Position numbers and translations under genes: made by a program. A stretch of DNA of 9,156 nt from a virus. Its lineage: Duplodnaviria; Heunggongvirae; Uroviricota; Caudoviricetes. Below, in pieces: positions 1 to 8,667 of the stretch. The stretch lies in IMG/VR virus record IMGVR_UViG_2579778919_000004, positions 1 to 9,156 of that record; one strand, written 5' to 3'. Each line of letters opens with the position of its first letter. The first letter of the stretch is position 1. The notes beneath the pieces are model-generated. The model had not been told where the DNA came from. It ran no database searches and worked only from the letters and a program-made list of their open reading frames with translations.

Positions 1-1
1 C

Positions 2-700
2 TCAGGTGTCTGGATATCGCACCTGCTGGAAAACCTGCCGGAAGAGAAACTGGCATCGGCGCTGAAAGATGACAACCCGAACTGGGAGTATATCGACGGC
101 GAAATCGTCAAGCAGGGATCGCTGGCCCACAGTCAACTTGATATCCCGGAACTCCAGCGCCGGGGGCTGGTCATTCTGGCTTCGGAGAGTAAGGATTTTC
201 GTCTGCTGGCGCATCTGCTGAGAACCCTGCAACACGCCGGTGATCCTCATCTCGCATTGCGCCTGCTGGCGCTGTATGTGGAGCATTACTGGGCGGTGGC
301 TGCGCCGCAGAATATGGCGCATAAAAAACGCTTTGCCAGCCAGGTCATTAAACGCTTTGAAACAGGTATTGAAGTTTTTTCACAGAACGCCGCCACAGCG
401 CAGCGCGATGCGCTGTCAGGGGAACTGGCAAAACTGGCGCAATGCTGGCAGTCACATAACGCCCCGGAACTGGCACAGGCTACTGATGATCTTTTTGCCC
501 TGTACCAGCGTGCGTTTAATCGTGCGGCACCGGCTCCTGTCCCCACTCCGGCGGCCTCCGGTAGTTCACCACAGACCACCGCCACGTCTGAAAGCGGCGT
601 GACGCAACCCAGTGCTCCGGCTCCCCAAATCGTCATCGACAGTCACGACGACAAAGCCTGGCGCGACACGCTGTTAAACATGACGGGCGTTAGGGGTTAA
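2..700 (+). CDS. 3' portion of a host chromosomal gene (5' end lies outside the window); unidentified protein with a Pro/Ala/Ser/Thr-rich linker; possible ImpA_N/TssA-like N-terminal domain; probable prophage integration target
   Basis: Seen in sequence: the frame starting at position 2 is open with no stops to TAA at 698-700; the first in-frame ATG at 257 is probably internal. This stretch is visibly more GC-rich than the phage DNA to its right. The C-terminal part has a low-complexity linker (PAPVPTPAASGSSPQTTATSESGVTQPSAPAP). Motifs SKDFRLLAHLL and LALRLLALYVEHYW are reminiscent of ImpA_N-type domains, recalled from memory and unverified. The stop overlaps the integrase stop on the opposite strand (TTAA at 697-700). 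Confidence 0.55.
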   Translation, partial: SGVWISHLLENLPEEKLASALKDDNPNWEYIDGEIVKQGSLAHSQLDIPELQRRGLVILASESKDFRLLAHLLRTLQHAGDPHLALRLLALYVEHYWAVAAPQNMAHKKRFASQVIKRFETGIEVFSQNAATAQRDALSGELAKLAQCWQSHNAPELAQATDDLFALYQRAFNRAAPAPVPTPAASGSSPQTTATSESGVTQPSAPAPQIVIDSHDDKAWRDTLLNMTGVRG

Positions 701-2311: not shown

Positions 2312-2461
2312 TCACACCACGTCAAGGCCACGGCAGTGGCACCACGTTTCGAACATTCGTTTAACCACTTCCCGGCAGTAGAACCCTTCCTGATCCCTAG
2401 AGAGGTCGTAGCGGTTGCTGTAACGCTGGCGCACCCATATTTCAAATGCCTTGTGCATCAT
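2312..2461 (-). CDS. Small hypothetical protein (49 aa), translated by hand; absent from the ORF track, probably because it is short
   Basis: Manual translation of the minus strand gives MMHKAFEIWVRQRYSNRYDLSRDQEGFYCREVVKRMFETWCHCRGLDVV. The ATG at 2459-2461 overlaps the stop of the upstream gene and follows GGAGGTGAA. It fills an otherwise unexplained 155-nt gap in a tightly packed operon. Confidence 0.4.
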   Translation of the reverse strand: MMHKAFEIWVRQRYSNRYDLSRDQEGFYCREVVKRMFETWCHCRGLDVV

Positions 2462-2769
2462 TTCACCTCCGCAGATAACGTCGTCACAATTACATGCTGG
2501 CGCGCCTTGGGCTTTATCAGAAAAATAGCCTTGTCATACCTGAGTCCGTATCCACCTTCACGTTCGCAGCGTGCGACTGAGGCGCACAAAGAGCGGGGAA
2601 TACCTTTCTTGCTGACATCAAATACCCAGGCGTTTTTGAGATCGAGGATCAGATTTCCTACATCGCCACCAATGCGTTCGATATAGCGTTCAATAGCGTG
2701 AACAGTCACCATGTAGTGGCGAAACTGCACACTTCCTGAGGCGGTCATTATTGGTGTAGTGGTGGTCAT
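2458..2769 (-). CDS. Hypothetical phage protein (103 aa from the ATG at 2767-2769)
   Basis: The track ORF 2458..2805 begins further upstream, but GGAGGTGAAGTG-ATG places the likely start at 2769, overlapping the stop of the upstream gene (ATGA). No recognisable domain. Confidence 0.7.
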   Translation of the reverse strand: MTTTTPIMTASGSVQFRHYMVTVHAIERYIERIGGDVGNLILDLKNAWVFDVSKKGIPRSLCASVARCEREGGYGLRYDKAIFLIKPKARQHVIVTTLSAEVK

Positions 2770-3260
2770 CACTTCACCTCCACGCCGATCCCGGCAATGA
2801 CACAAGCTCGTTCTATAGCTTCTTTCGCCCAGCGCTTATAGGTTTCCGGATGGAAAGCCTCGCTTTTGCCTGTACCGCTCCAGAATGCTTTTGAACCAGT
2901 ATCTGGCAGGGTGATGGTCAATTGCTTACCATTGGTAACATCGTTAATCAGCCCTGACTTAATATTCAGTTGCAATTCTTTGTCTATCAGTGCTTCTTCC
3001 AGTTCGGCAACATGGCATTCAGAATCAATCAGGTTGCTTTCCACAGAAGACAGGGCTTGTTTTAGTCGCTCGATCTCCGCCGCCATGTAGTAACCGGTTT
3101 TGCTCCAGGTATCCACATCATCACCGGTCATATCCGGTTCCATCGTCGCCATGAGAATGGCGTCGTGATAGTCCTGGCTGCCACTGGTAATCGCAACAGC
3201 GTAGGTGTCACTGTTTTCGCGCTTATGGATAAGCACGACAGGGTTAGTGATTTTGCTCAT
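2769..3260 (-). CDS. Hypothetical phage protein, 163 aa, with a predicted central coiled-coil-like segment
   Basis: ORF with ATG at 3258-3260 overlapping the upstream stop (ATGA). The central region (AAEIERLKQALSSVESNLIDSECHVAELEEALIDKELQL) has a heptad-like character. No recognised family. Confidence 0.72.
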   Translation of the reverse strand: MSKITNPVVLIHKRENSDTYAVAITSGSQDYHDAILMATMEPDMTGDDVDTWSKTGYYMAAEIERLKQALSSVESNLIDSECHVAELEEALIDKELQLNIKSGLINDVTNGKQLTITLPDTGSKAFWSGTGKSEAFHPETYKRWAKEAIERACVIAGIGVEVK

Positions 3261-3481
3261 CGTGCCGCCTCTCGCTGGATTGTCTTGTGGGCTCGCAACA
3301 TATCGCGGGATTTTCCGGACAAAACCGTCTTCATGAAGAACATTCCACTGCGGTTTGCAACTATTCCTGGAGTGCAGATCAGCGTGGCGTCTACCACCCG
3401 GTTATGTTTACGGAATTCAAACACCGTGCTGGTGATAACGATGTTCGCCACGGCGCCGTAGTCCTGGTATTGGATTTTCAT
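3257..3481 (-). CDS. Hypothetical small phage protein, 74 aa
   Basis: ATG at 3479-3481 preceded by GAGGAG with an 8-nt spacer; overlaps the stop of the upstream clamp-like gene (ATGA). Confidence 0.7.
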   Translation of the reverse strand: MKIQYQDYGAVANIVITSTVFEFRKHNRVVDATLICTPGIVANRSGMFFMKTVLSGKSRDMLRAHKTIQREAAR

Positions 3482-4044
3482 GCCAGATGCTCCTCAACAA
3501 TTTTGAAAGCATCATCACGGCATGGCATCACGACGAACTCAGGGTTACCGTATGTAGTGTTGATCACTGGATCGAACTGAATGCGTACCGCTCCAGCCTC
3601 ACCGGAAGGGCGTAACTGGATGGGAATAAACTTTCGCTCGCGACCAAACATCTTTTCCGGATAGCTGAGGTATTCAGCCTGGATAACCGGATTGATACTG
3701 AAATCCACTTTTTTCGGGATGACGCGTTCCATATCAGGAAAACGACCATCAACAAGTTTGATGCCAGTGATCAAGATCCGACGCTCGAACGTGTCGCGGT
3801 GAATGGCAAAGGCTTCTTTGTTGAATACCAGTTCAGTGGTTTCCGCTTTCGCCGGAACCGGTCCTTCAAACTGGACGATGATGTTTTTCTTCGTCCGGAT
3901 GCCGTGCTCCATGCGCAGTGCTACATGCCCGTTAGTTGACTCGATATATTTCGGAGTGATGTGCACACCATTCAGGTAGTAACGGACATCATTTTTTGCA
4001 GCGCATACCAGAGCTGCGCGAATGAGTTTCGACTGGATGATCAT
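3478..4044 (-). CDS. Truncated DNA polymerase III beta sliding clamp (DnaN)-like protein, 188 aa, corresponding to clamp domain II plus an abbreviated domain III
   Basis: Three colinear motifs match E. coli DnaN as I recall it: DVRYYLNG (DnaN domain II, with flanking K-LI-A and T-GH-LA context), KLVDGRFPD..RV.PK (DnaN TSKLVDGRFPDYRRVLPK) and the C-terminal VVMP.R (DnaN ends AAYVVMPMRL). The ORF is about half the length of DnaN (366 aa) and lacks domain I. Strong tandem SD (GGAGGTGGAGG) before the ATG at 4042-4044. Confidence 0.7.
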   Translation of the reverse strand: MIIQSKLIRAALVCAAKNDVRYYLNGVHITPKYIESTNGHVALRMEHGIRTKKNIIVQFEGPVPAKAETTELVFNKEAFAIHRDTFERRILITGIKLVDGRFPDMERVIPKKVDFSINPVIQAEYLSYPEKMFGRERKFIPIQLRPSGEAGAVRIQFDPVINTTYGNPEFVVMPCRDDAFKIVEEHLA

Positions 4045-4871
4045 GCCTCCACCTCCACGAAGATCTCTTTCGGATCCTTACGCAGAACGAAGCCACCAAA
4101 TTCAGGATGTTGCCAGCGCTTGCGTTTACCGCTTGGGGGAACGGATTCTTCCAGCAGCACCTGAAATGCGTGAATGAACGATTCACGGTGTACGCACAGC
4201 CCACGAACTCCCGGCAACTGTCTGGAGGGCAGGTTTGCGAACTGAACAAGACGACGGCACGAAGGATCGGACAGACTGGTTTCCCATGACACTTTGTGTA
4301 CCGGAACGAATTCGGCATCGGTATTCACGAATTCAGTCGAACTAATGCGCCGTTGTGGTAGAGAGGAAGATACAGGCGAAGCAGCAACCAGGTTGGTGCC
4401 ACTCACTTCCATTACTGCTTTCATCGTCGCTGATGCGGTTGCTTCGGCCACAACACGGGCCAGCGAAAGAATGTCATGGTTCATGCTGATTTCCTGCTGG
4501 TGTGATTTAGCTACTGGCACTTCTTTGCTGTATGTGCCTGTGGTCATGATGGCAGGGAGTACATCTTCACAAACCCAGTCCTGTACGCGTTCAGCCGATG
4601 GAAGCTGGCTTCGCAGGATAAGGCGGAACAAGTCGGCCTGACCAGCAAGCTGAGTACCGCGCGGTTTTTCACCAAACCCCAATTCTAACGATTCGTTATA
4701 ATCAAGTTTAATCAATGCCTTGCAGTGGTCTTTCAGCGCTTTTGCTGGGTTCGTATAACCGAGGGATTTAGCCAGTTCTACAGCGTCAAACGCTGGCTTT
4801 CCCTCATAAAGAATTCCGCTCATAGAAAAATTGAGTTCTTCTGAGCTAAAGGTCATAAGTTGTTTATTCAT
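4041..4871 (-). CDS. BRO-N domain protein (phage antirepressor-like N-terminal domain) with an uncharacterised C-terminal half, 276 aa
   Basis: The N-terminal ~120 aa shows a BRO-N pattern: FSSEELNFSMSGILYEGKPAFDAVELAKSLGYTNP ... DLFRLILRSQLPSAERVQDWVCEDVLPAIMTTGTY. ATG at 4869-4871 preceded by GAGGGAAATAACG. The C-terminal ~150 aa has no recognisable motifs. Confidence 0.82.
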   Translation of the reverse strand: MNKQLMTFSSEELNFSMSGILYEGKPAFDAVELAKSLGYTNPAKALKDHCKALIKLDYNESLELGFGEKPRGTQLAGQADLFRLILRSQLPSAERVQDWVCEDVLPAIMTTGTYSKEVPVAKSHQQEISMNHDILSLARVVAEATASATMKAVMEVSGTNLVAASPVSSSLPQRRISSTEFVNTDAEFVPVHKVSWETSLSDPSCRRLVQFANLPSRQLPGVRGLCVHRESFIHAFQVLLEESVPPSGKRKRWQHPEFGGFVLRKDPKEIFVEVEA

Positions 4872-4882
4872 CGTTATTTCCC

Positions 4883-5461
4883 TCAGTGCATAACTGGCAT
4901 TTCTGGCATGCCGTTGGCGTTAATCTCTCCGATGTAGTCATCGTGAAGCATCTCAAGTCCTTTTCGCCCAAAGGGTGACATCCTGAATCCGCACCCCGGA
5001 TCCGCAATCACCATGTCCTGATACATGCGAAGGGCTAGGGCTGAACCCTCGCAAACGCCATATTTCTCTATGGCGATGCTTTCCACATGGTTAGCGAGAG
5101 AAAAACGCAGTGGACCGGGGTAGATACTCAAATTTCCTTTCTTACCCGAATAAATAACTGCGATATCAACGCCGCCGTCACCGTTAGGAACCTCAACCAT
5201 GCCGTTCTTATCCTTCTCTTCGTTGATGAATACTGTTGCTACCAGCCAGCGCCACAGAATGAGTTCTTTCTCTGCGCCTAAAGAAACCAAACCAGCTGCC
5301 ACGGCATCCATAATGCAGGCCAACCAACGCAGCCCCTCTGAGTTGCGGGAGTCAAAGCGCGAACCATCGAATTGTTTAACCGCGCCAGACCAGCCAATAA
5401 CGCGAGTTCCGATCTTGATGCCGTTTGGCGTAGTTTCTGGCGCGTCGTAATTGCTGCTCAT
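4883..5461 (-). CDS. Hypothetical phage protein, 192 aa
   Basis: ATG at 5459-5461 preceded by GGAGGG with a 6-nt spacer; overlaps the upstream stop (ATGA). No recognised domain. Confidence 0.78.
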   Translation of the reverse strand: MSSNYDAPETTPNGIKIGTRVIGWSGAVKQFDGSRFDSRNSEGLRWLACIMDAVAAGLVSLGAEKELILWRWLVATVFINEEKDKNGMVEVPNGDGGVDIAVIYSGKKGNLSIYPGPLRFSLANHVESIAIEKYGVCEGSALALRMYQDMVIADPGCGFRMSPFGRKGLEMLHDDYIGEINANGMPEMPVMH

Positions 5462-5880
5462 CGAATACCCTCCGGTTTACTGGCCTGTAGTTCGTCAACC
5501 TCTTTAACGAAGCGGTCGTGCATGGCGTCCCACTTCTCACACCATTTCGTCATGTCACGCTTAATGGCCAGAATGCGGCGAAGACGTCGAACACAGCGCT
5601 GGTGGGCTCCGATGTACTCAACTGTTGTGCCTCCTCGCTGCCAACAATTCAGCTCTGGATTGAGTGGGTGGACTGCCTGCACATCCGGGTGCCGCTGCTC
5701 GAAGCCGGAGCGATAAAACGCTTCTGAAGTCATAAAGAACGCCAGATAGCGGATCGCCGTATCTCGCGTGAAGCATTTTTTGATACGACCGTGGCGTACT
5801 GCCACGAACAGTGGGCCAACTGGCGTATCGTGTTTCTGTAATGCAAGGTCAATCATGCTTACGGTGCGTTTATCGTTCAT
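5458..5880 (-). CDS. Hypothetical phage protein, 140 aa, with four Cys and a basic stretch (possible metal- or nucleic-acid-binding)
   Basis: ATG at 5878-5880 overlapping the upstream stop (ATGA). Cys at KKCF, NCWQ, HQRCV and KWCEKW; arginine-rich RCVRRLRRILAIKR. No recognised family. Confidence 0.72.
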   Translation of the reverse strand: MNDKRTVSMIDLALQKHDTPVGPLFVAVRHGRIKKCFTRDTAIRYLAFFMTSEAFYRSGFEQRHPDVQAVHPLNPELNCWQRGGTTVEYIGAHQRCVRRLRRILAIKRDMTKWCEKWDAMHDRFVKEVDELQASKPEGIR

Positions 5881-6098
5881 TTCCGATCCTTAACTTTGCT
5901 GTATCGCTCGTGACTCATTACTTCCCAGTTCTTTCCGCCATCGCGGGAGAGTAGCCGCCAGCGGTGATTAACCTTGAGGCTCAAATTACCGGAGCCGTGC
6001 ATACGGCAGGGGTGAATGCGCCTTGCTCTGAACTGGCTTAAAACGTGTGCTGCTTTGAGGTGAACCCACTCAGGAATTCGAATTGCTGTCAGTGCCAC
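5877..6098 (-). CDS. Hypothetical small phage protein, 73 aa, with a probable GTG start
   Basis: The first codon of the track ORF is GTG, not ATG, and is preceded by AGGAG with a ~7-nt spacer. The 5' end overlaps the 3' end of the upstream gene by 29 nt. An internal start is an alternative. Confidence 0.55.
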   Translation of the reverse strand: MALTAIRIPEWVHLKAAHVLSQFRARRIHPCRMHGSGNLSLKVNHRWRLLSRDGGKNWEVMSHERYSKVKDRK

Positions 6099-6321
6099 CA
6101 GTTAGCTCCTGTATACGTAACCCGGCTTCGCGAGCCATTTTGATAAAAGTGTCCAGTGCGCAAATATGTTCGTCGTCGAGCAGCCGGCGGTCGCATGTCA
6201 CACGCCCTTTTTCTATGTAAAGAACCACGCGTCCGGTGAAATCCGGAAGCACATGCAGATCCACGTTGAGGACTGGGGGGGGGATCTGCATTCCGTGCAT
6301 AATTGTTTGTTGTGAGGCCAT
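6070..6321 (-). CDS. Hypothetical small phage protein, 83 aa; contains a C9 homopolymer in its coding sequence
   Basis: ATG at 6319-6321 preceded by GGAGGAATTAACTG. The codons for IPPP (ATC CCC CCC CCA) form a 9-nt C run, seen as G9 on the + strand at ~6275-6283. Confidence 0.65.
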   Translation of the reverse strand: MASQQTIMHGMQIPPPVLNVDLHVLPDFTGRVVLYIEKGRVTCDRRLLDDEHICALDTFIKMAREAGLRIQELTGGTDSNSNS

Positions 6322-6776: not shown

Positions 6777-7073
6777 TTATCTTTCAGAAACGTCATTATT
6801 GCCCCCCCCTTTGAGGTGTTCTCCATCGTCATTTTTTGTCATGAAGCAAAGCTCATTAAGTAATGAGGTGAATCTTCCCGCTACCTTCACATCAGTGCGT
6901 GTGATTGCGGGCATAAGTAACTGGGTAAATTCAGCACGCAGCTCATGCGCATATTTATTGGCACACTCTGCTGTTTTGTGGGCTTTATTTATGTAAAGAA
7001 AGTCGCCATCCTGATTGGCTGGATGGACTTTGTTATTCACGATTTCACTTCTGACGATAATATTCATTTGCAT
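6777..7073 (-). CDS. Hypothetical protein, 98 aa (or 96 aa from the ATG at 7065-7067); AT-rich moron-like gene with a G8 tract near its 3' end
   Basis: The ORF lies in AT-rich DNA. GAGG sits only 2 nt before the first ATG but 8 nt before the third-codon ATG, which favours the latter start. The codons for KGGGN contain G8, seen as C8 on the + strand at ~6802-6809. Confidence 0.62.
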   Translation of the reverse strand: MQMNIIVRSEIVNNKVHPANQDGDFLYINKAHKTAECANKYAHELRAEFTQLLMPAITRTDVKVAGRFTSLLNELCFMTKNDDGEHLKGGGNNDVSER

Positions 7074-7140: not shown

Positions 7141-7434
7141 TTAAATAGCAGAGAACATTTTCTTAATATCAGGATGGTCATCTATGATTTTTTTAGCATC
7201 ATCACATGCCTCGTCATATGATTTAAAGAAATCAACTAATACGAAATAATTTTCGATGCGTTCGTAAACGGCGAACTCCATCTCACCAACAAATGTCGTA
7301 TTGAATTGGTAATCAAAACCTTTATCGTGAGGCTGCACAGCATGGCAATAAGACCAATGCGAATTGGTTGATCTAAGCTTGGCGTGAATATCAAATGTCT
7401 GGCAGGTAGGTTTTGGTTGGGAGTTTGTGTTCAT
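7141..7434 (-). CDS. Hypothetical mildly acidic protein, 97 aa; first gene downstream of the predicted PL
   Basis: ATG at 7432-7434 preceded by GGAG with an 8-nt spacer. AT-rich composition. The protein is Asp/Glu-rich toward the C-terminus (DEACDDAKKIIDDHPD). It is not basic or Arg-rich, so it does not look like a lambda N-type antiterminator. Confidence 0.68.
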   Translation of the reverse strand: MNTNSQPKPTCQTFDIHAKLRSTNSHWSYCHAVQPHDKGFDYQFNTTFVGEMEFAVYERIENYFVLVDFFKSYDEACDDAKKIIDDHPDIKKMFSAI

Positions 7435-7560
7435 CTCATTGGCTCCGTTGTTTGCCGATGAAATGAGAATACTTAAGTATTAATTGAAGGTCAATGGTAT
7501 TAATACAAAAAGAATAATAGTTTTCTTATGTATTTGTTATTGAAGATTATTTTAGTAATA
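7435..7560 (-). promoter_or_regulatory. Predicted leftward early promoter and operator region (PL/OL analogue)
   Basis: On the minus strand: TTGACC (-35; + strand ggtcaa at ~7489-7494), a 17-nt spacer, then TATTCT (-10; + strand agaata at ~7466-7471), about 25 nt upstream of the ATG at 7434. A perfect 14-bp palindrome AATACTTAAGTATT (~7468-7481) overlaps the -10 and spacer, and a second palindrome GTATTAATAC (~7497-7506) lies just upstream of the -35. Both share the TAATAC half-site found in the cI-cro intergenic region. Confidence 0.4.
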
Positions 7561-7598
7561 AAAAAGCCGACGCTATGGTCGGCTTGGTGCTTTTTTGG
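7559..7598 (-). terminator. Rho-independent terminator downstream of the repressor gene (hairpin flanked by an A-run and a T-run, so potentially bidirectional)
   Basis: AAAAAA-AAGCCGAC-gctatg-GTCGGCTT-ggtgc-TTTTTT: a perfect 8-bp stem with a 6-nt loop. On the minus strand the stem is followed directly by TTTTTTATT, about 20 nt past the repressor stop. Confidence 0.6.
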
Positions 7599-7605
7599 CA
7601 GCGGA

Positions 7606-8298
7606 TCAGAAGATTGTTGATACCCAAAACAGTCTTCCTAAAACTTCAAGACTATCCATGTCTACTTCTTCGTCAGGGTATTCATCAGAGTTGTAGCTTC
7701 TGATTGTCACCTTATCTGGCCCAGATCTGTAGAGGATTTTTAACCTTTTCCATCCACCTTGGTTGATGCCGTAAATTTTACCATCCACGATACGCTTGTC
7801 ATGGCAGTTTATGGCAACAGTTGAGCCATCAGCGATCACTGGCTCCATGCTATTTCCGTGTGCAGCAAAGCATAGAACGCCATCACCATCACTATTAGCT
7901 CCCACCTTTCGCAATGTTGCTTTGGAAAATCTAAGTTTTTTTCCATTGTAATCATCATTAAGGGCGCTGCCATCTCCACATGCGAACTCGATATCCTTCA
8001 AGTAAGGCACCTCTACCTCATCATCCTCAAGCGGCGTTTGCTTATCCCATGGATCTATACCAAACATTCTTTGTTCTGGCGTTTTTGCTGGCCCCATGGT
8101 GCCTTCACCAGTGCTTAACCATATGGGATCTACATCCAGTGCTTTGGCTATATCCACGATTTTTCCGCTGGACTGAGCTTTTCCTGAGGTTAGTTTTTGT
8201 ATGGCCCCCTGGCTTACCCCAACCCTATGCGCTAATTGACTTTGAGTAGCCCCAGCATGAGCCATCGCCAGCCTTAGTCTTTCTGCAAGTGTGTTCAT
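7606..8298 (-). CDS. CI-like prophage repressor: N-terminal XRE-type HTH plus C-terminal S24 (LexA/UmuD-like) autopeptidase domain, 230 aa
   Basis: N-terminal HTH (QSQLAHRVGVSQGAIQKLTSG). C-terminal S24 signatures: GNSMEP (catalytic Ser in a G-x-S-M context) and downstream WKRLK (candidate catalytic Lys). Candidate autocleavage site Cys-Gly in FACGDG, as in UmuD. ATG at 8296-8298 preceded by GGAG. Divergent from a cro-like gene. Confidence 0.9.
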   Translation of the reverse strand: MNTLAERLRLAMAHAGATQSQLAHRVGVSQGAIQKLTSGKAQSSGKIVDIAKALDVDPIWLSTGEGTMGPAKTPEQRMFGIDPWDKQTPLEDDEVEVPYLKDIEFACGDGSALNDDYNGKKLRFSKATLRKVGANSDGDGVLCFAAHGNSMEPVIADGSTVAINCHDKRIVDGKIYGINQGGWKRLKILYRSGPDKVTIRSYNSDEYPDEEVDMDSLEVLGRLFWVSTIF

Positions 8299-8424
8299 CT
8301 TAGTATCTCCGATTTTTATGCATATTTAATACCACAGGATTAACCATGGCAAGCGGATAATACTTGATTAATTATTCCTTTGGTATTATTTTATATCTTT
8401 AATATTAATACTAAGGGCTTTGTT
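8299..8424. promoter_or_regulatory. Divergent immunity control region (OR analogue) with candidate PRM (leftward) and PR (rightward) promoters and repeated TAATAC-type operator half-sites
   Basis: AT-rich 126-bp intergenic region between the divergent repressor and cro-like genes. TAATAC or its complement occurs at ~8327, ~8358, ~8383 (complement) and ~8406. Imperfect palindromes: TAATACCACAGGATTA (~8327-8342), GGATAAT..ATTATTCC (~8355-8378), and CCTTTGGTATTA with TAATACTAAGGG (~8377-8417). Candidate PR: TTGATT (~8364-8369), 17 nt, TATTTT (~8387-8392). Candidate PRM on the minus strand: TTGCCA, 17 nt, TTAAAT (+ strand ~8347-8352 and ~8324-8329). Confidence 0.55.
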
Positions 8425-8667
8425 ATGACTGATGAGGTGTTTGAATCCCCAATGGCGAAAGCCGTGTACGTTGCTGGTGGTCAAAGTTCGCTTGCTAAAA
8501 AGGTTGGCGTTACGCAAGGGGCCGTCTGGAAGTGGGTCAGGGGGATCAAGAAAGTTTCTCCGGTCCATGCAGTGGCAGTATCAAACGCAGTTAATGGAAT
8601 TGTTAAGCCTCATGAACTGCGGCCTGATTTGCCGACTCTTTTCCCGCACCCGGGCAATGAGGTGTGA
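8425..8667 (+). CDS. Cro-like / YdaS-family HTH regulator, 80 aa
   Basis: ATG at 8425 preceded by AAGGG with a 7-nt spacer; the track start at 8380 is a TTG inside the operator region and was rejected. The segment AVYVAGGQSSLAKKVGVTQGAVWKWVRG ... ELRPDL resembles Rac prophage YdaS as I recall it (VVGGQSALARLLGVSPPSVNQWIKG ... ELRPDI). Divergent from the repressor. Confidence 0.8.
   Translation: MTDEVFESPMAKAVYVAGGQSSLAKKVGVTQGAVWKWVRGIKKVSPVHAVAVSNAVNGIVKPHELRPDLPTLFPHPGNEV

What the first reader, a model, noticed from the sequence alone, without database searches (positions are those of the whole stretch)
3478..4044. Prophage-encoded truncated beta sliding clamp (DnaN) homologue
The 188-aa product keeps three signature segments of the bacterial beta clamp in the correct order (DVRYYLNG, KLVDGRFPD..RV.PK and the C-terminal VVMP.R) but lacks domain I and much of domain III. 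A half-clamp cannot form the normal head-to-tail dimer ring by itself. It could heterodimerise with or poison host DnaN, sequester clamp-binding partners, or act as a phage-specific processivity or recruitment factor. I do not recall a canonical lambdoid early gene of this type. It sits inside an operon of unknown genes, so it may mark an uncharacterised host-takeover or anti-defence module.
Basis: partly seen in the sequence, partly recalled or inferred. Interest (0 to 1): 0.8.

Follow-up and report, generated by a model that had tools for sequence, protein, structure and literature searches.

The report
Phage mini-clamp keeping only the binding pocket
A prophage gene encodes a cut-down copy of the bacterial DNA sliding clamp that keeps the two pieces forming the clamp's partner-binding pocket and has lost the pieces that close the ring, so it probably captures clamp-binding proteins and does not encircle DNA; it belongs to a large phage family that was noticed before but never studied.

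Summary

The architecture is domain II plus only the second beta-alpha-beta-beta-beta half of domain III ('IIIb'). Domain I and the first half of domain III are absent, and they carry both sides of the ring-closing dimer interface and five of six named dsDNA contacts.

The retained parts hold all 18 published residues of the clamp-binding-motif pocket. Thirteen are identical in this protein (28% identity overall; Fisher p=4e-5). They are the most conserved columns across 71 diverse family members.

The gene is under strong purifying selection (dN/dS 0.06) and lies in the early-left operon of a lambdoid-type prophage. Its neighbours are mosaic, with no fixed partner.

Most likely it is a non-ring pocket module that binds clamp-binding motifs of host replication or repair proteins, as decoy or adaptor. 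That function is inferred, not shown.

The family is large (735 representatives). Short phage beta homologues were noted in 2011, and databases label them inconsistently, including a wrong 'RusA-like resolvase' label. None is characterised. Interest is moderate.

The parts
3478..4044 (-). Complete ORF (188 aa plus TGA stop) encoding the short beta-clamp homologue
   Evidence: PHROG 3007 full-length match E=1.3e-64. Median dN/dS 0.06 among 28 alleles.
4046..4056 (-). Shine-Dalgarno-like GGAGGTGGAGG just upstream of the ATG, inside the 3' end of the upstream gene. Stop and start overlap as ATGA.
   Evidence: Sequence read. A 4-bp overlap with the upstream gene occurs in 53 of 81 related loci.
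3709..4044 (-). Residues 1-112, the equivalent of clamp domain II (E. coli beta about 132-251)
   Evidence: Alignments. Domain II alone scores 69.8 bits against the family HMM.
3967..3990 (-). DVRYYLNG (residues 19-26). Holds pocket subsite I residues R21 (=R152) and L24 (=L155).
   Evidence: R152 and L155 columns are conserved in 70 and 67 of 71 diverse members.
3919..3936 (-). TNGHVA (residues 37-42), the equivalent of beta T172-L177 in pocket subsite I. T, G and H are kept; R176->V and L177->A.
3841..3867 (-). Residues 60-68 (EGPVPAKAE), a predicted loop where E. coli domain II has its second channel-lining helix (beta 197-209). Basic R197, K198 and R205 are replaced by F, E and T.
   Evidence: DSSP of the AF2 model; residue mapping
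3712..3759 (-). KLVDGRFPDMERVIPK (residues 96-111). Holds pocket residues P103 (=P242), R107 (=R246) and V108 (=V247), plus the domain II-III linker.
3517..3708 (-). Residues 113-176, a single beta-alpha-beta-beta-beta half-domain equivalent to the SECOND half of clamp domain III (beta about 318-366, 'IIIb')
   Evidence: Family HMM gains 23-28 bits with IIIb against 6.7 bits with IIIa. On the diverse alignment the gains are +24.5 and +3.9. A second reference clamp gives +15 to +18 against about 0. Foldseek alignments span about 257 columns, so they run to the C-terminus of beta.
3667..3684 (-). IQAEYL (residues 121-126). Q122 and Y125 are equivalent to subsite II residues N320 and Y323.
   Evidence: N in 36 and Q in 12 of 71 members; Y in 57 of 71
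3517..3534 (-). VVMPCR (residues 171-176), equivalent to beta V360-R365, the last strand of the clamp. It closes the pocket against domain II.
   Evidence: M362 column conserved in 70 of 71, P363 in 66 of 71, R365 in 56 of 71
3481..3516 (-). Residues 177-188 (DDAFKIVEEHLA), a clade-specific C-terminal helix beyond the clamp's natural end. It is absent from many distant family members, which end at MPxR(L).
   Evidence: AF2 helix 179-187; alignment A1
4041..4871 (-). Context: upstream, translationally coupled gene for a Bro-N / anti-repressor-like protein (276 aa). It is a frequent but not obligate neighbour.
   Evidence: Pfam Bro-N E=4.9e-15. Upstream neighbour in 57 of 81 loci. ORF6N-type protein in E. 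coli prophages.
3257..3481 (-). Context: downstream, translationally coupled 74-aa gene (phrog_1001, function unknown). It is a frequent but not obligate neighbour.
   Evidence: Downstream neighbour in 60 of 81 loci. Also present in Stx phages that lack the clamp-like gene.

Best explanation
The gene encodes a compact, non-ring derivative of the bacterial beta sliding clamp. It consists of clamp domain II fused to the C-terminal half of domain III. These are the two physically adjoining pieces that build the clamp's peptide-binding pocket, the site where Pol III alpha, the delta clamp-loader subunit, Pol II/IV/V, MutS/MutL, Hda and others dock through a short clamp-binding motif.

The protein has lost domain I and the distal half of domain III. 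Those segments carry both sides of the ring-closing interface and almost all named DNA contacts.

I propose that it is made early after prophage induction from the leftward early operon. It would act as a soluble pocket module that captures clamp-binding-motif-bearing host replication or repair proteins. It could work as a competitor of the host clamp (decoy) or as an adaptor that hands such a protein to the phage.

Shown: homology, fold, architecture, loss of interface and DNA-contact segments, pocket conservation, purifying selection, and a family-wide stable short length.

Inferred: that the pocket binds clamp-binding motifs, that the protein does not form a ring, the identity of the ligand, the timing of expression, and the physiological consequence.
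For: Homology and fold:
- Family profile vs E. coli beta E=1.8e-24.
- AF2 pLDDT 97.4.

Architecture:
- HMM scoring against dissected E. coli DnaN gives domain II 69.8 bits, +IIIa 76.5, +IIIb 92.7-97.9.
- The result is reproduced with a diverse 71-member alignment and with a second full-length reference.

Pocket:
- All 18 pocket residues listed in the 2024 review (PMC11139829) fall in the retained segments.
- 13 of 18 are identical in this protein, against 32 of 143 elsewhere (Fisher p=4.2e-5).
- In 71 diverse representatives the four most conserved columns are R152, G174, M362 and P242, and 7 of the top 8 are pocket residues. Mean entropy is 1.37 vs 2.71 bits, Mann-Whitney p=2.6e-6.

Losses:
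- Interface residues I78, F106, I272, L273 and E298-E304 all lie in absent segments.
- Five of six named dsDNA contacts (Q15, G23, R24, R73, R80) are in absent domain I.
- One channel helix is replaced by a loop and basic residues are lost.

Functionality and family:
- Median dN/dS 0.06.
- Strong SD and translational coupling.
- 735 representatives; the best 150 are mostly 170-230 aa and none is 300 aa or longer.

Other:
- No conserved clamp-binding motif in neighbouring phage proteins, which points to a host ligand.
- The review reports that delta binds monomeric beta about 50-fold tighter than the dimer. A monomeric pocket could therefore be an effective competitor (inference).
Against: - No binding, oligomeric-state or phenotype data exist for any family member that I could find.
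- Pocket residues are also the most conserved part of DnaN generally. Part of their prominence could reflect how homologues are detected, although their conservation within the divergent family argues for selection.
- Two subsite I residues differ (R176->V, L177->A), and N320->Q and M364->C in this clade. Ligand specificity may therefore differ from host beta.
- Within the close clade, pocket codons are not visibly more constrained than the rest of the protein: nonsynonymous/synonymous difference ratio 0.30 vs 0.35. The whole protein is constrained.
- The protein is basic (pI 9.05), which by the 2011 heuristic suggests direct DNA binding rather than a purely soluble decoy.
- A decoy that titrates Pol III would also harm a phage that depends on host Pol III.
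Confidence: 0.5

Rival explanations
1. Non-ring, DNA-bound processivity or tethering factor. The basic protein binds duplex DNA directly, in the manner of herpesvirus UL42/UL44. It uses its pocket to hold a polymerase (host Pol III or Pol I, or the phage's own A-family polymerase in lytic relatives) on phage DNA without a clamp loader.
For: - pI 9.05 and net charge +4, against 5.25 for E. coli beta and 5.96 for its equivalent segment. 52% of family members have pI above 8.
- Kazlauskas & Venclovas link high pI and absence of a clamp loader to direct DNA binding.
- Dhillonvirus relatives encode their own PolA and primase-helicase but no clamp loader.
- The Vibrio phage homologue sits among SSB, Dam, exonuclease and RdgC genes.
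- The pocket is conserved.
Against: - 37% of the family is acidic (pI below 6.5), so DNA binding is not a family-wide property.
- Basic channel residues of beta are replaced and one channel helix is lost.
- No clamp-binding-motif pattern was found in the Dhillonvirus polymerase or other replication proteins.
Confidence: 0.2
2. Self-assembling sliding clamp of new stoichiometry. The orphan half-domain pairs with the half-domain of a second subunit, reconstituting a full clamp domain about a two-fold axis. Dimers or tetramers (4 x 1.5 = 6 domains) then form a half-ring or a closed ring that works as a true clamp.
For: - A clamp domain is built from two homologous beta-alpha-beta-beta-beta units, and the protein has exactly three of the twelve units of a ring.
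- A lone half-domain would otherwise expose the surface that normally packs against IIIa (inference from published clamp topology; note).
- From my own knowledge, not retrievable here: E. coli beta*, the domain II+III short form, was reported to be active as a clamp in an oligomeric state other than the dimer.
- The whole protein is strongly constrained, not only the pocket.
Against: - AF2 folds the monomer with very high confidence (pLDDT 97.4, pTM 0.91), which suggests a self-contained fold. A clade-specific C-terminal helix could cap the exposed face.
- The channel-lining helix of domain II is lost, basic channel residues are not conserved, and five of six named DNA contacts are missing.
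- Ring closure would need a homotypic domain II edge pairing that no known clamp uses.
- No clamp loader is encoded nearby.
- The hypothesis could not be tested, because no multimer prediction was available.
Confidence: 0.12
3. The conserved pocket has been re-targeted. It binds something other than canonical clamp-binding motifs, such as a phage protein with a divergent motif, the neighbouring Bro-N/ORF6N anti-repressor-like protein, the Nmad5 DNA-modification enzyme in Dhillonviruses, or single-stranded DNA (which also binds this site in beta). The protein would then serve as a phage-internal scaffold.
For: - Subsite I substitutions R176->V/I and L177->A are family-typical.
- The Bro-N/ORF6N gene is the usual translationally coupled upstream neighbour (57 of 81 loci). 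In this window it contains QADLF at residue 78.
- An Nmad5 gene is adjacent in a two-gene cassette in Dhillonvirus.
- The review notes that beta has a second DNA-binding site that takes the ssDNA part of primed DNA. That this site coincides with the peptide pocket is my own knowledge, not retrieved here.
Against: - Neighbours are mosaic and all combinations occur.
- The neighbours of distant homologues are unrelated to one another.
- QADLF lies inside the folded Bro-N domain, is not conserved in the cluster representative, and I estimate about one such match by chance in the window's proteins.
- No motif was found in Nmad5.
- 13 of 18 pocket residues are identical to host beta, which favours a host-type ligand.
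Confidence: 0.12
4. Poison subunit. The half-clamp hetero-oligomerises with host DnaN monomers and blocks ring closure or loading, shutting off host replication.
Against: - Both sides of the canonical dimer interface are absent: I78/F106/R103/R105 in domain I, and I272/L273/E298-E304 in IIIa.
- The edges that remain free are ones already satisfied intramolecularly in host beta (inference).
- Lambdoid phages need the host clamp for their own replication (established knowledge).
Confidence: 0.04
5. RusA-like Holliday junction resolvase, as many RefSeq phage records and PHROG 3007 label it; or else a non-functional gene remnant.
For: The PHROG 3007 label has been propagated to records such as NC_054640, NC_054650 and NC_048112.
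Against: - No RusA or other nuclease family was found in Pfam or NCBIfam even at E<=1.
- The fold is unambiguously a clamp.
- Against a remnant: dN/dS is 0.06, the ORF is intact with a strong SD, and length is stable across hundreds of clusters.
Confidence: 0.01

Closest known systems
Bacterial beta sliding clamp (DnaN, Pol III beta; e.g. E. coli, PDB 2POL/1MMI)
   Same: - Homologous sequence (profile E=1.8e-24).
- 13 of 18 peptide-pocket residues identical.
   Different: - 188 aa rather than 366 aa.
- No domain I and no first half of domain III, so no canonical dimer interface. Five of six named dsDNA contacts are missing.
- One channel helix is replaced by a loop.
- Basic rather than acidic (pI 9.05 vs 5.25).
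- Phage-encoded, in an early operon.
Short phage polIII-beta homologues noted by Kazlauskas & Venclovas 2011 (NAR 39:8291, PMC3201878); PHROG 3007/947; PGAP 'beta clamp domain-containing protein'
   Same: Same class: phage proteins of about 170-230 aa that begin at clamp domain II. This protein matches PHROG 3007 end to end (E=1.3e-64). BFVD models of phage proteins of 178-215 aa match it with TM 0.7-0.8.
   Different: [quoted passage not shown] Here the third domain is shown to be only its second half.
- I found no description of pocket retention combined with interface loss in the papers I searched.
- No member has an experimentally assigned function, and database labels conflict ('DNA polymerase III beta subunit', 'RusA-like Holliday junction resolvase', 'hypothetical').
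E. coli beta* (UV-inducible short clamp made from an internal start in dnaN; Skaliter, Paz-Elizur & Livneh, J Biol Chem 1996). Cited from my own knowledge; the papers were not retrievable here.
   Same: A naturally occurring N-terminally truncated beta clamp that starts at about domain II and retains the partner-binding pocket.
   Different: - beta* keeps the whole of domains II and III (about 26 kDa) and was reported to act as a processivity clamp.
- The phage protein lacks half of domain III as well.
- It is a separate gene under its own selection, not an alternative product of dnaN.
Non-ring viral processivity factors with the clamp fold (herpesvirus UL42, UL44, BMRF1, PF-8)
   Different: - They have two full clamp domains, are only remotely related, and bind their polymerase at a different site.
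- DNA binding by the phage protein is untested, and 37% of its family is acidic.
Phage proteins that target the host clamp pocket from outside (e.g. Staphylococcus phage Twort Gp168; PDB 7evp appears among the hits)
   Same: They would affect the same interaction hub, the clamp pocket and its clients, during phage takeover.
   Different: Those proteins are ligands or inhibitors of the host clamp and are not clamp homologues. This protein is a copy of the pocket itself, so it would act on the clients and not on the clamp.

Membership tests
Bacterial beta sliding clamp DnaN (TIGR00663; Pfam PF00712+PF02767+PF02768) | Three clamp-fold domains (N-terminal, central, C-terminal) in one chain of about 366 aa | tested here: not met
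   188 aa. Only domain II plus half of domain III. No PF00712 or PF02768 hit at E<=1. HMM dissection.
Bacterial beta sliding clamp DnaN (TIGR00663; Pfam PF00712+PF02767+PF02768) | Score above the curated family cutoffs | tested here: not met
   TIGR00663 24.5 bits against a cutoff of 137.65. PF02767 18.8 bits against a cutoff of 27.
Bacterial beta sliding clamp DnaN (TIGR00663; Pfam PF00712+PF02767+PF02768) | Sequence homology to DnaN and the DNA-clamp fold | tested here: met
Bacterial beta sliding clamp DnaN (TIGR00663; Pfam PF00712+PF02767+PF02768) | Head-to-tail dimer interface (I78/F106 with I272/L273; K74, R96, R103, R105 with E298-E304) | tested here: not met
   All of these residues map to segments absent from the family.
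Bacterial beta sliding clamp DnaN (TIGR00663; Pfam PF00712+PF02767+PF02768) | Clamp-binding-motif pocket (subsites I and II, 18 residues) | tested here: met
   All 18 positions are present and 13 are identical. They are the most conserved columns in the family. Actual peptide binding was not tested.
Bacterial beta sliding clamp DnaN (TIGR00663; Pfam PF00712+PF02767+PF02768) | dsDNA contacts in the central channel (Q15, G23, R24, R73, R80, Q149) | tested here: not met
   Five of six lie in the absent domain I. Q149 corresponds to N18.
Bacterial beta sliding clamp DnaN (TIGR00663; Pfam PF00712+PF02767+PF02768) | Forms a closed ring, is loaded by the clamp loader and confers processivity | not testable with these tools
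   Needs multimer modelling or biochemistry. Only a monomer model could be made.
Short phage polIII-beta homologues (PHROG 3007; PGAP 'beta clamp domain-containing protein') | End-to-end match to the family profile | tested here: met
   PHROG 3007 E=1.3e-64, residues 1-179 on profile positions 3-188 of 190.
Short phage polIII-beta homologues (PHROG 3007; PGAP 'beta clamp domain-containing protein') | Length about 170-230 aa, starting at clamp domain II and ending at the MPxR strand | tested here: met
   Alignments A1 and A4. Median length of the additional representatives retrieved is 190 aa, and none is 300 aa or longer.
Short phage polIII-beta homologues (PHROG 3007; PGAP 'beta clamp domain-containing protein') | Encoded by phages or prophages | tested here: met
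   Integrase, excisionase, cI and cro in the window. 248 phage records. 303 IMG/VR loci.
RusA Holliday junction resolvase (the label attached to PHROG 3007) | RusA family sequence signature or RusA fold | tested here: not met
   No RusA hit in Pfam or NCBIfam at E<=1. The fold is a DNA clamp.
E. coli beta* type short clamp (domains II+III) | Complete domains II and III | tested here: not met
   The first half of domain III is absent: IIIa adds 6.7 bits or less, IIIb adds 15-28 bits.
Non-ring viral processivity factors (UL42/UL44 type) | Basic DNA-binding face and direct DNA binding without a loader | tested here: inconclusive
Known anti-phage defence or candidate systems (PADLOC-DB) | Match to any PADLOC model, for the protein or its operon neighbours | tested here: not met
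   No hit for the protein. The only neighbour hit is a chance-level match to the 163-aa ORF (PbeC, E=0.0086, 12.9 bits).

The most novel reading that the evidence does not exclude
The protein is a quarter-ring subunit, three of the twelve beta-alpha-beta-beta-beta units of a clamp. Its orphan half-domain pairs two-fold symmetrically with that of a second copy, rebuilding a whole clamp domain. The resulting dimers (half rings) or tetramers (closed rings of four subunits) would have partner-binding pockets on BOTH faces. That would be a sliding clamp with a symmetry and stoichiometry unlike the dimeric beta, trimeric PCNA/gp45 or any known clamp, possibly self-loading on phage DNA.
Probability: 0.08. 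Interest if true: 0.9.

Novelty: new variant of a known kind. Interest (0 to 1): 0.55.

Why it matters
The clamp pocket is the traffic hub of bacterial replication and repair. Pol III, the clamp loader, translesion polymerases, mismatch repair and Hda all compete for it, and it is an antibiotic target.

A widespread phage family that copies only the pocket and discards the ring would be a natural pocket mimic. It would be a new way for phages to rewire or starve that hub, acting on the clients and not on the clamp. It would also be a ready-made minimal scaffold for studying or screening pocket ligands.

The hypothesis is sharply testable through peptide binding, pocket mutants, and replication, SOS and mutator phenotypes.

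The work also corrects a propagated mis-annotation ('RusA-like Holliday junction resolvase'). It refines the 2011 description of these proteins from 'domains II and III' to 'domain II plus the pocket-forming half of domain III'.

If the protein instead proves to be an ordinary accessory with no phenotype, the finding reduces to a tidy annotation of a known, uncharacterised phage family.

Tried and rejected
- **Single-sequence AlphaFold** gave an unusable model (pLDDT 28.9) and was discarded.
An alignment of protein-representative hits was accepted.
- **A profile-based second homologue search** timed out. The AFDB fold library was unavailable. Model coordinates were not exported, so pocket geometry, surface charge and exposed hydrophobic area could not be measured.
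- **Conserved partner gene:** the genes of about 250 aa next to homologues in a Dhillonvirus, a Vibrio phage and this window are unrelated to one another. In 81 loci of the close clade, upstream and downstream neighbours occur in all combinations. The 74-aa downstream gene also occurs in Stx phages without the clamp-like gene. A fixed partner is rejected.
- **Phage-encoded clamp-binding motif:** only QADLF (Bro-N, inside the folded domain) and QIAML (integrase) were found in the window, and I estimate about one such match by chance. None was found in Dhillonvirus replication proteins or Nmad5. No convincing conserved motif was found in neighbour clusters.
- **Defence-system membership:** PADLOC is negative for the protein, with only a chance-level PbeC match to one neighbour.
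- **RusA-resolvase label:** rejected.
- **Pseudogene or remnant:** rejected for this gene (dN/dS 0.06). The Fels-1 copy does appear to be a remnant.
- **Literature:** searches for a characterised phage mini-clamp or pocket decoy found nothing relevant beyond the 2011 survey. The 'clamp-like' mention in the V. cholerae WASA paper is unrelated. The beta* papers are not in the library.
- **hhalign against a 328-aa three-domain relative** aligned only domain II, because the internal deletion breaks the local alignment. The dissection approach replaced it.
Full report

Yes. The ORF occupies 3478-4044 on the minus strand, with ATG at 4042-4044 and TGA at 3478-3480, and encodes 188 aa. The three quoted motifs are present in the stated order: DVRYYLNG (residues 19-26), KLVDGRFPDMERVIPK (96-111) and VVMPCR (171-176). 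A fourth DnaN block, TNGH (37-40), lies between the first two.

With the single sequence the similarity to the clamp is modest but reproducible:
- Pfam DNA_pol3_beta_2: E=0.002, 18.8 bits, below the 27-bit cutoff.
- TIGR00663: E=1.2e-5.
- PHROG 947 'DNA polymerase processivity factor': E=3e-8.
- phmmer against PDB: about 1e-4, aligning residues 5-117 to E. coli beta 136-256.

With a family profile it is decisive, at E=1.8e-24 against E. coli beta. The window is a complete 9,156-bp contig (GCA_000482045.1, ATJZ01000057.1). It carries one end of a lambdoid-type prophage: integrase 697-2010, DUF1233 excisionase 2066-2302, S24-type cI repressor 7606-8298 and cro-like gene 8380-8667.

**2. Structure**

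Single-sequence AlphaFold failed (pLDDT 28.9). With an alignment of 71 diverse family representatives the model is excellent, at mean pLDDT 97.4 and pTM 0.91.

- The 50 best-ranked Foldseek hits against the PDB are all bacterial beta clamps, nearly all at probability 1.00.

Domain II accounts for only about 112 residues. The rigid superposition of about 160 residues therefore means the extra half-domain sits in its native position relative to domain II.

**3. Exact architecture**

A clamp domain is two beta-alpha-beta-beta-beta units. I scored the family HMM against dissected E. coli DnaN:

| Construct | Bits |
|---|---|
| Domain II alone | 69.8 |
| Domain II + first half of domain III (IIIa, 254-309) | 76.5 |
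| Domain II + second half (IIIb, 310-366) | 92.7 |
| Domain II + strand 254-258 + 318-366 | 97.9 |
| IIIb alone | 18.0 |
| IIIa alone | 1.7 |

The result holds with the more diverse alignment, at +24.5 against +3.9 bits. It also holds with an independent 328-aa three-domain relative, at +15 to +18 against about 0 bits. Foldseek alignments span about 257 columns, so they run from domain II to the C-terminus of beta across a gap.

The protein is therefore domain II plus IIIb, as if one repeat unit (roughly beta 259-317) and all of domain I had been removed in register. The model also predicts two changes. A loop at residues 60-68 replaces the second, channel-lining helix of domain II. A clade-specific C-terminal helix (179-187) extends beyond the clamp's natural end.

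**4. What was kept and what was lost**

I used residue lists from a 2024 review (PMC11139829).

- *Kept.* All 18 residues of the clamp-binding-motif pocket fall in the retained segments. These are subsite I (R152, L155, T172, G174, H175, R176, L177, P242, R246, V247, V360, M362) and subsite II (H175, N320, Y323, V344, M362, P363, M364, R365). None lies in IIIa.
- *Identity.* In the window protein 13 of 18 are identical. N320->Q and M364->C are conservative, R176->V and L177->A differ, and V344 is variable, as it is among true clamps. That compares with 32 of 143 identical elsewhere (Fisher p=4.2e-5).
- *Family conservation.* Across 71 representatives that are mostly 25-46% identical to the query, the four most conserved columns of the entire family are R152, G174, M362 and P242. 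Seven of the top eight are pocket residues. Mean column entropy is 1.37 against 2.71 bits (Mann-Whitney p=2.6e-6).
- *Lost.* Every residue of the ring-closing interface lies in an absent segment: I78 and F106 with I272 and L273, and K74, R96, R103 and R105 with E298-E304. Five of the six named dsDNA contacts (Q15, G23, R24, R73, R80) are in the absent domain I. Basic residues R197, K198, R205 and K332 are replaced by F, E, T and G.

Published topology gives a geometric reading (inference; note). The pocket sits at the junction of the T172-L177 strand of domain II and the last strand of domain III. IIIb is thus the half of domain III that abuts domain II. IIIa is the distal half that closes the ring. 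The phage protein is the minimal contiguous piece of a clamp that still contains the whole pocket.

**5. Is it a working gene, and how common is it?**

Among 28 distinct 564-nt alleles from related loci, median dN/dS is 0.06 at median dS 0.77. A GGAGGTGGAGG Shine-Dalgarno precedes the ATG, and start and stop codons overlap both neighbours by 4 bp.

- An exhaustive phmmer search of 1.84 billion representatives finds 735 at E<=1e-3 and 108 at E<=1e-10. The best 150 are mostly 170-230 aa and none is 300 aa or longer.
- Homologues occur in 248 phage GenBank records, mainly Salmonella, Escherichia, Klebsiella, Vibrio, Acinetobacter, Proteus and Burkholderia phages.
- They occur in 303 IMG/VR loci and in 61 of 5,426 complete E. 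coli genomes.
- BFVD holds many phage proteins of about 160-250 aa with this fold, the closest at TM 0.7-0.8.

The short form is therefore a stable, selected architecture and not a truncation artefact. The Fels-1 copy is an exception: only the C-terminal 61% aligns, and that stretch is annotated as separate small ORFs.

**6. Context**

In the window the gene lies in a tightly packed leftward operon between the cI-type repressor and int/xis. A terminator hairpin (7564-7585) and a promoter-like site (7494-7466) lie just downstream of cI, and no predicted terminator lies in between. Delayed-early expression on induction is inferred from this, not shown.

- Upstream is a Bro-N anti-repressor-like protein, and downstream a 74-aa protein of unknown function.
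- Across 81 loci of the close clade these are the commonest neighbours (57 and 60 loci), but other families substitute in all combinations.
- The 74-aa gene also occurs in Stx phages that lack the clamp-like gene.
- In a Dhillonvirus the homologue forms a two-gene cassette with an Nmad5 gene, on the opposite strand inside the structural module. That phage has its own A-family polymerase and primase-helicase but no clamp loader.
- In a Vibrio phage the homologue lies among RdgC, exonuclease, Dam and SSB genes.
- The adjacent genes in these three contexts are unrelated to one another.
- PADLOC gives no hit for the protein and only a chance-level match to one neighbour.
- No convincing conserved clamp-binding motif was found in neighbouring proteins.

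**7. Mechanism**

Best supported (confidence about 0.5): a non-ring pocket module that binds clamp-binding motifs of host replication or repair proteins, acting as a competitor of the host clamp or as an adaptor. The architecture, the losses, pocket conservation and selection are shown. Binding, ligand identity and consequence are inferred. The review's report that delta binds monomeric beta about 50-fold tighter than the dimer suggests a monomeric pocket could compete effectively.

Main rivals:
- *DNA-bound, loader-independent tether or processivity factor (0.2).* Supported by pI 9.05 against 5.25 for beta, and by the 2011 heuristic linking high pI to non-ring DNA binders. Weakened because 37% of the family is acidic.
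- *Self-assembling clamp of new stoichiometry through half-domain pairing (0.12).* Geometrically attractive but untested. Weakened by the lost channel helix and DNA contacts, and by the confident self-contained monomer model.
- *A re-targeted pocket that binds a phage protein or ssDNA (0.12).*
- *Poisoning of host DnaN (0.04).* It lacks any canonical interface.
- *The 'RusA-like resolvase' label or a dead remnant (0.01).* Refuted.

**8. Comparison with what is known**

It works like, and descends from, the beta clamp, but it fails the membership tests for DnaN. It lacks three domains, scores below the curated cutoffs, and has no dimer interface and almost no channel contacts. It passes the homology, fold and pocket tests.

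It is a clear member of the short phage polIII-beta homologues: PHROG 3007 at E=1.3e-64, and PGAP's 'beta clamp domain-containing protein'. [quoted passage not shown] The existence of such proteins is therefore known. I found no functional study, and no description of the domain II + IIIb pocket-only architecture, in the papers I searched.

The nearest cellular precedent is E. coli beta*, the UV-inducible domain II+III product of dnaN. I cite it from my own knowledge because the papers were not retrievable. It differs in keeping all of domain III.

**9. Verdict**

The finding is real and correctly identified. 'Sequester partners / recruitment' is the option the evidence favours. 'Poison host DnaN' and 'anti-defence module' have no support, and the gene is not rare.

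Novelty: a variant of a known kind, seen before but only coarsely described and never characterised.

Interest: moderate (0.55). It is not a new category, but it gives a crisp, widely distributed and directly testable hypothesis about how phages engage the host's central replication and repair hub.

Noticed in passing
window 5877-6098 (-) and 6070-6321 (-): A 73-aa ORF with a strong ParE-like toxin domain hit (PF24732, E=2.3e-20) overlaps by 29 nt an upstream 83-aa ORF (phrog_340, E=1.9e-26). The two may be a toxin-antitoxin pair inside the early-left operon. Neither ORF appears among the genes called for this contig in the public collection.
   Followed up: partly
PHROG 3007; phage records such as NC_054640, NC_054650, NC_048112, NC_021563, PP580404: The label 'RusA-like Holliday junction resolvase' attached to this family appears to be an annotation error propagated through many RefSeq and GenBank phage records. 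No RusA signature is present and the fold is a clamp.
   Followed up: yes
L001 5155-6489 (Escherichia phage vB_EcoS_WF5505, Dhillonvirus): The Dhillonvirus homologue forms a two-gene cassette with an Nmad5 gene (PF18757, E=6.8e-55), on the opposite strand inside the structural module. A point mutation in Nmad5 lets Dhillonviruses escape the Tmn defence system, and the gene is toxic to clone (PMC11846954). Whether the clamp-like protein works with Nmad5 is unknown.
   Followed up: partly
window 4041-4871 (-), residue 78 of the Bro-N protein: The translationally coupled upstream Bro-N protein contains QADLF, which fits the pentameric clamp-binding consensus. From my own knowledge it resembles the internal QADMF motif of E. 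coli Pol III alpha. It lies inside the folded Bro-N domain, is not conserved in the cluster representative, and I estimate about one such match by chance in the window's proteins.
   Followed up: partly
L085 about 4711-5345 (Salmonella phage Fels-1, STM0896 / STM0896.2n): In Fels-1 only the C-terminal 61% of the clamp-like protein aligns (82.5% identity), and that stretch is annotated as separate small ORFs. It looks like a degraded or recombined copy, while the adjacent 74-aa gene is intact at 90.5% identity.
   Followed up: partly
window 7564-7585 and 7466-7494: A perfect 8-bp-stem hairpin with T-runs on both strands (a bidirectional terminator-like site) lies immediately downstream of the cI-type repressor gene. 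It is followed by a leftward promoter-like site (TTGACC-17-TATTCT) that may drive the early-left operon.
   Followed up: no
window 1-700, ORF 257-700 (+): The 147-aa ORF abutting the integrase end has a Pro/Ala/Ser-rich C-terminal half and no Pfam hit. The first roughly 670 bases of the window have no counterpart at the equivalent E. coli integration site (yecE/yecN/cmoA side), so the host is probably not E. coli.
   Followed up: no
window 2458-2805 (-), 7141-7434 (-), 6777-7073 (-): Several operon ORFs have no annotation. The 115-aa ORF has no hit in Pfam or PHROGs and only a chance-level one in NCBIfam (E=0.04). The 97-aa and 98-aa ORFs have no Pfam hit. The early-left operon is almost entirely uncharacterised.
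   Followed up: no
family-wide (alignment A4): Family pI is bimodal: 52% of members are above 8 and 37% below 6.5, with median 8.4. This suggests two functional or partner classes within the short-clamp family.
   Followed up: no
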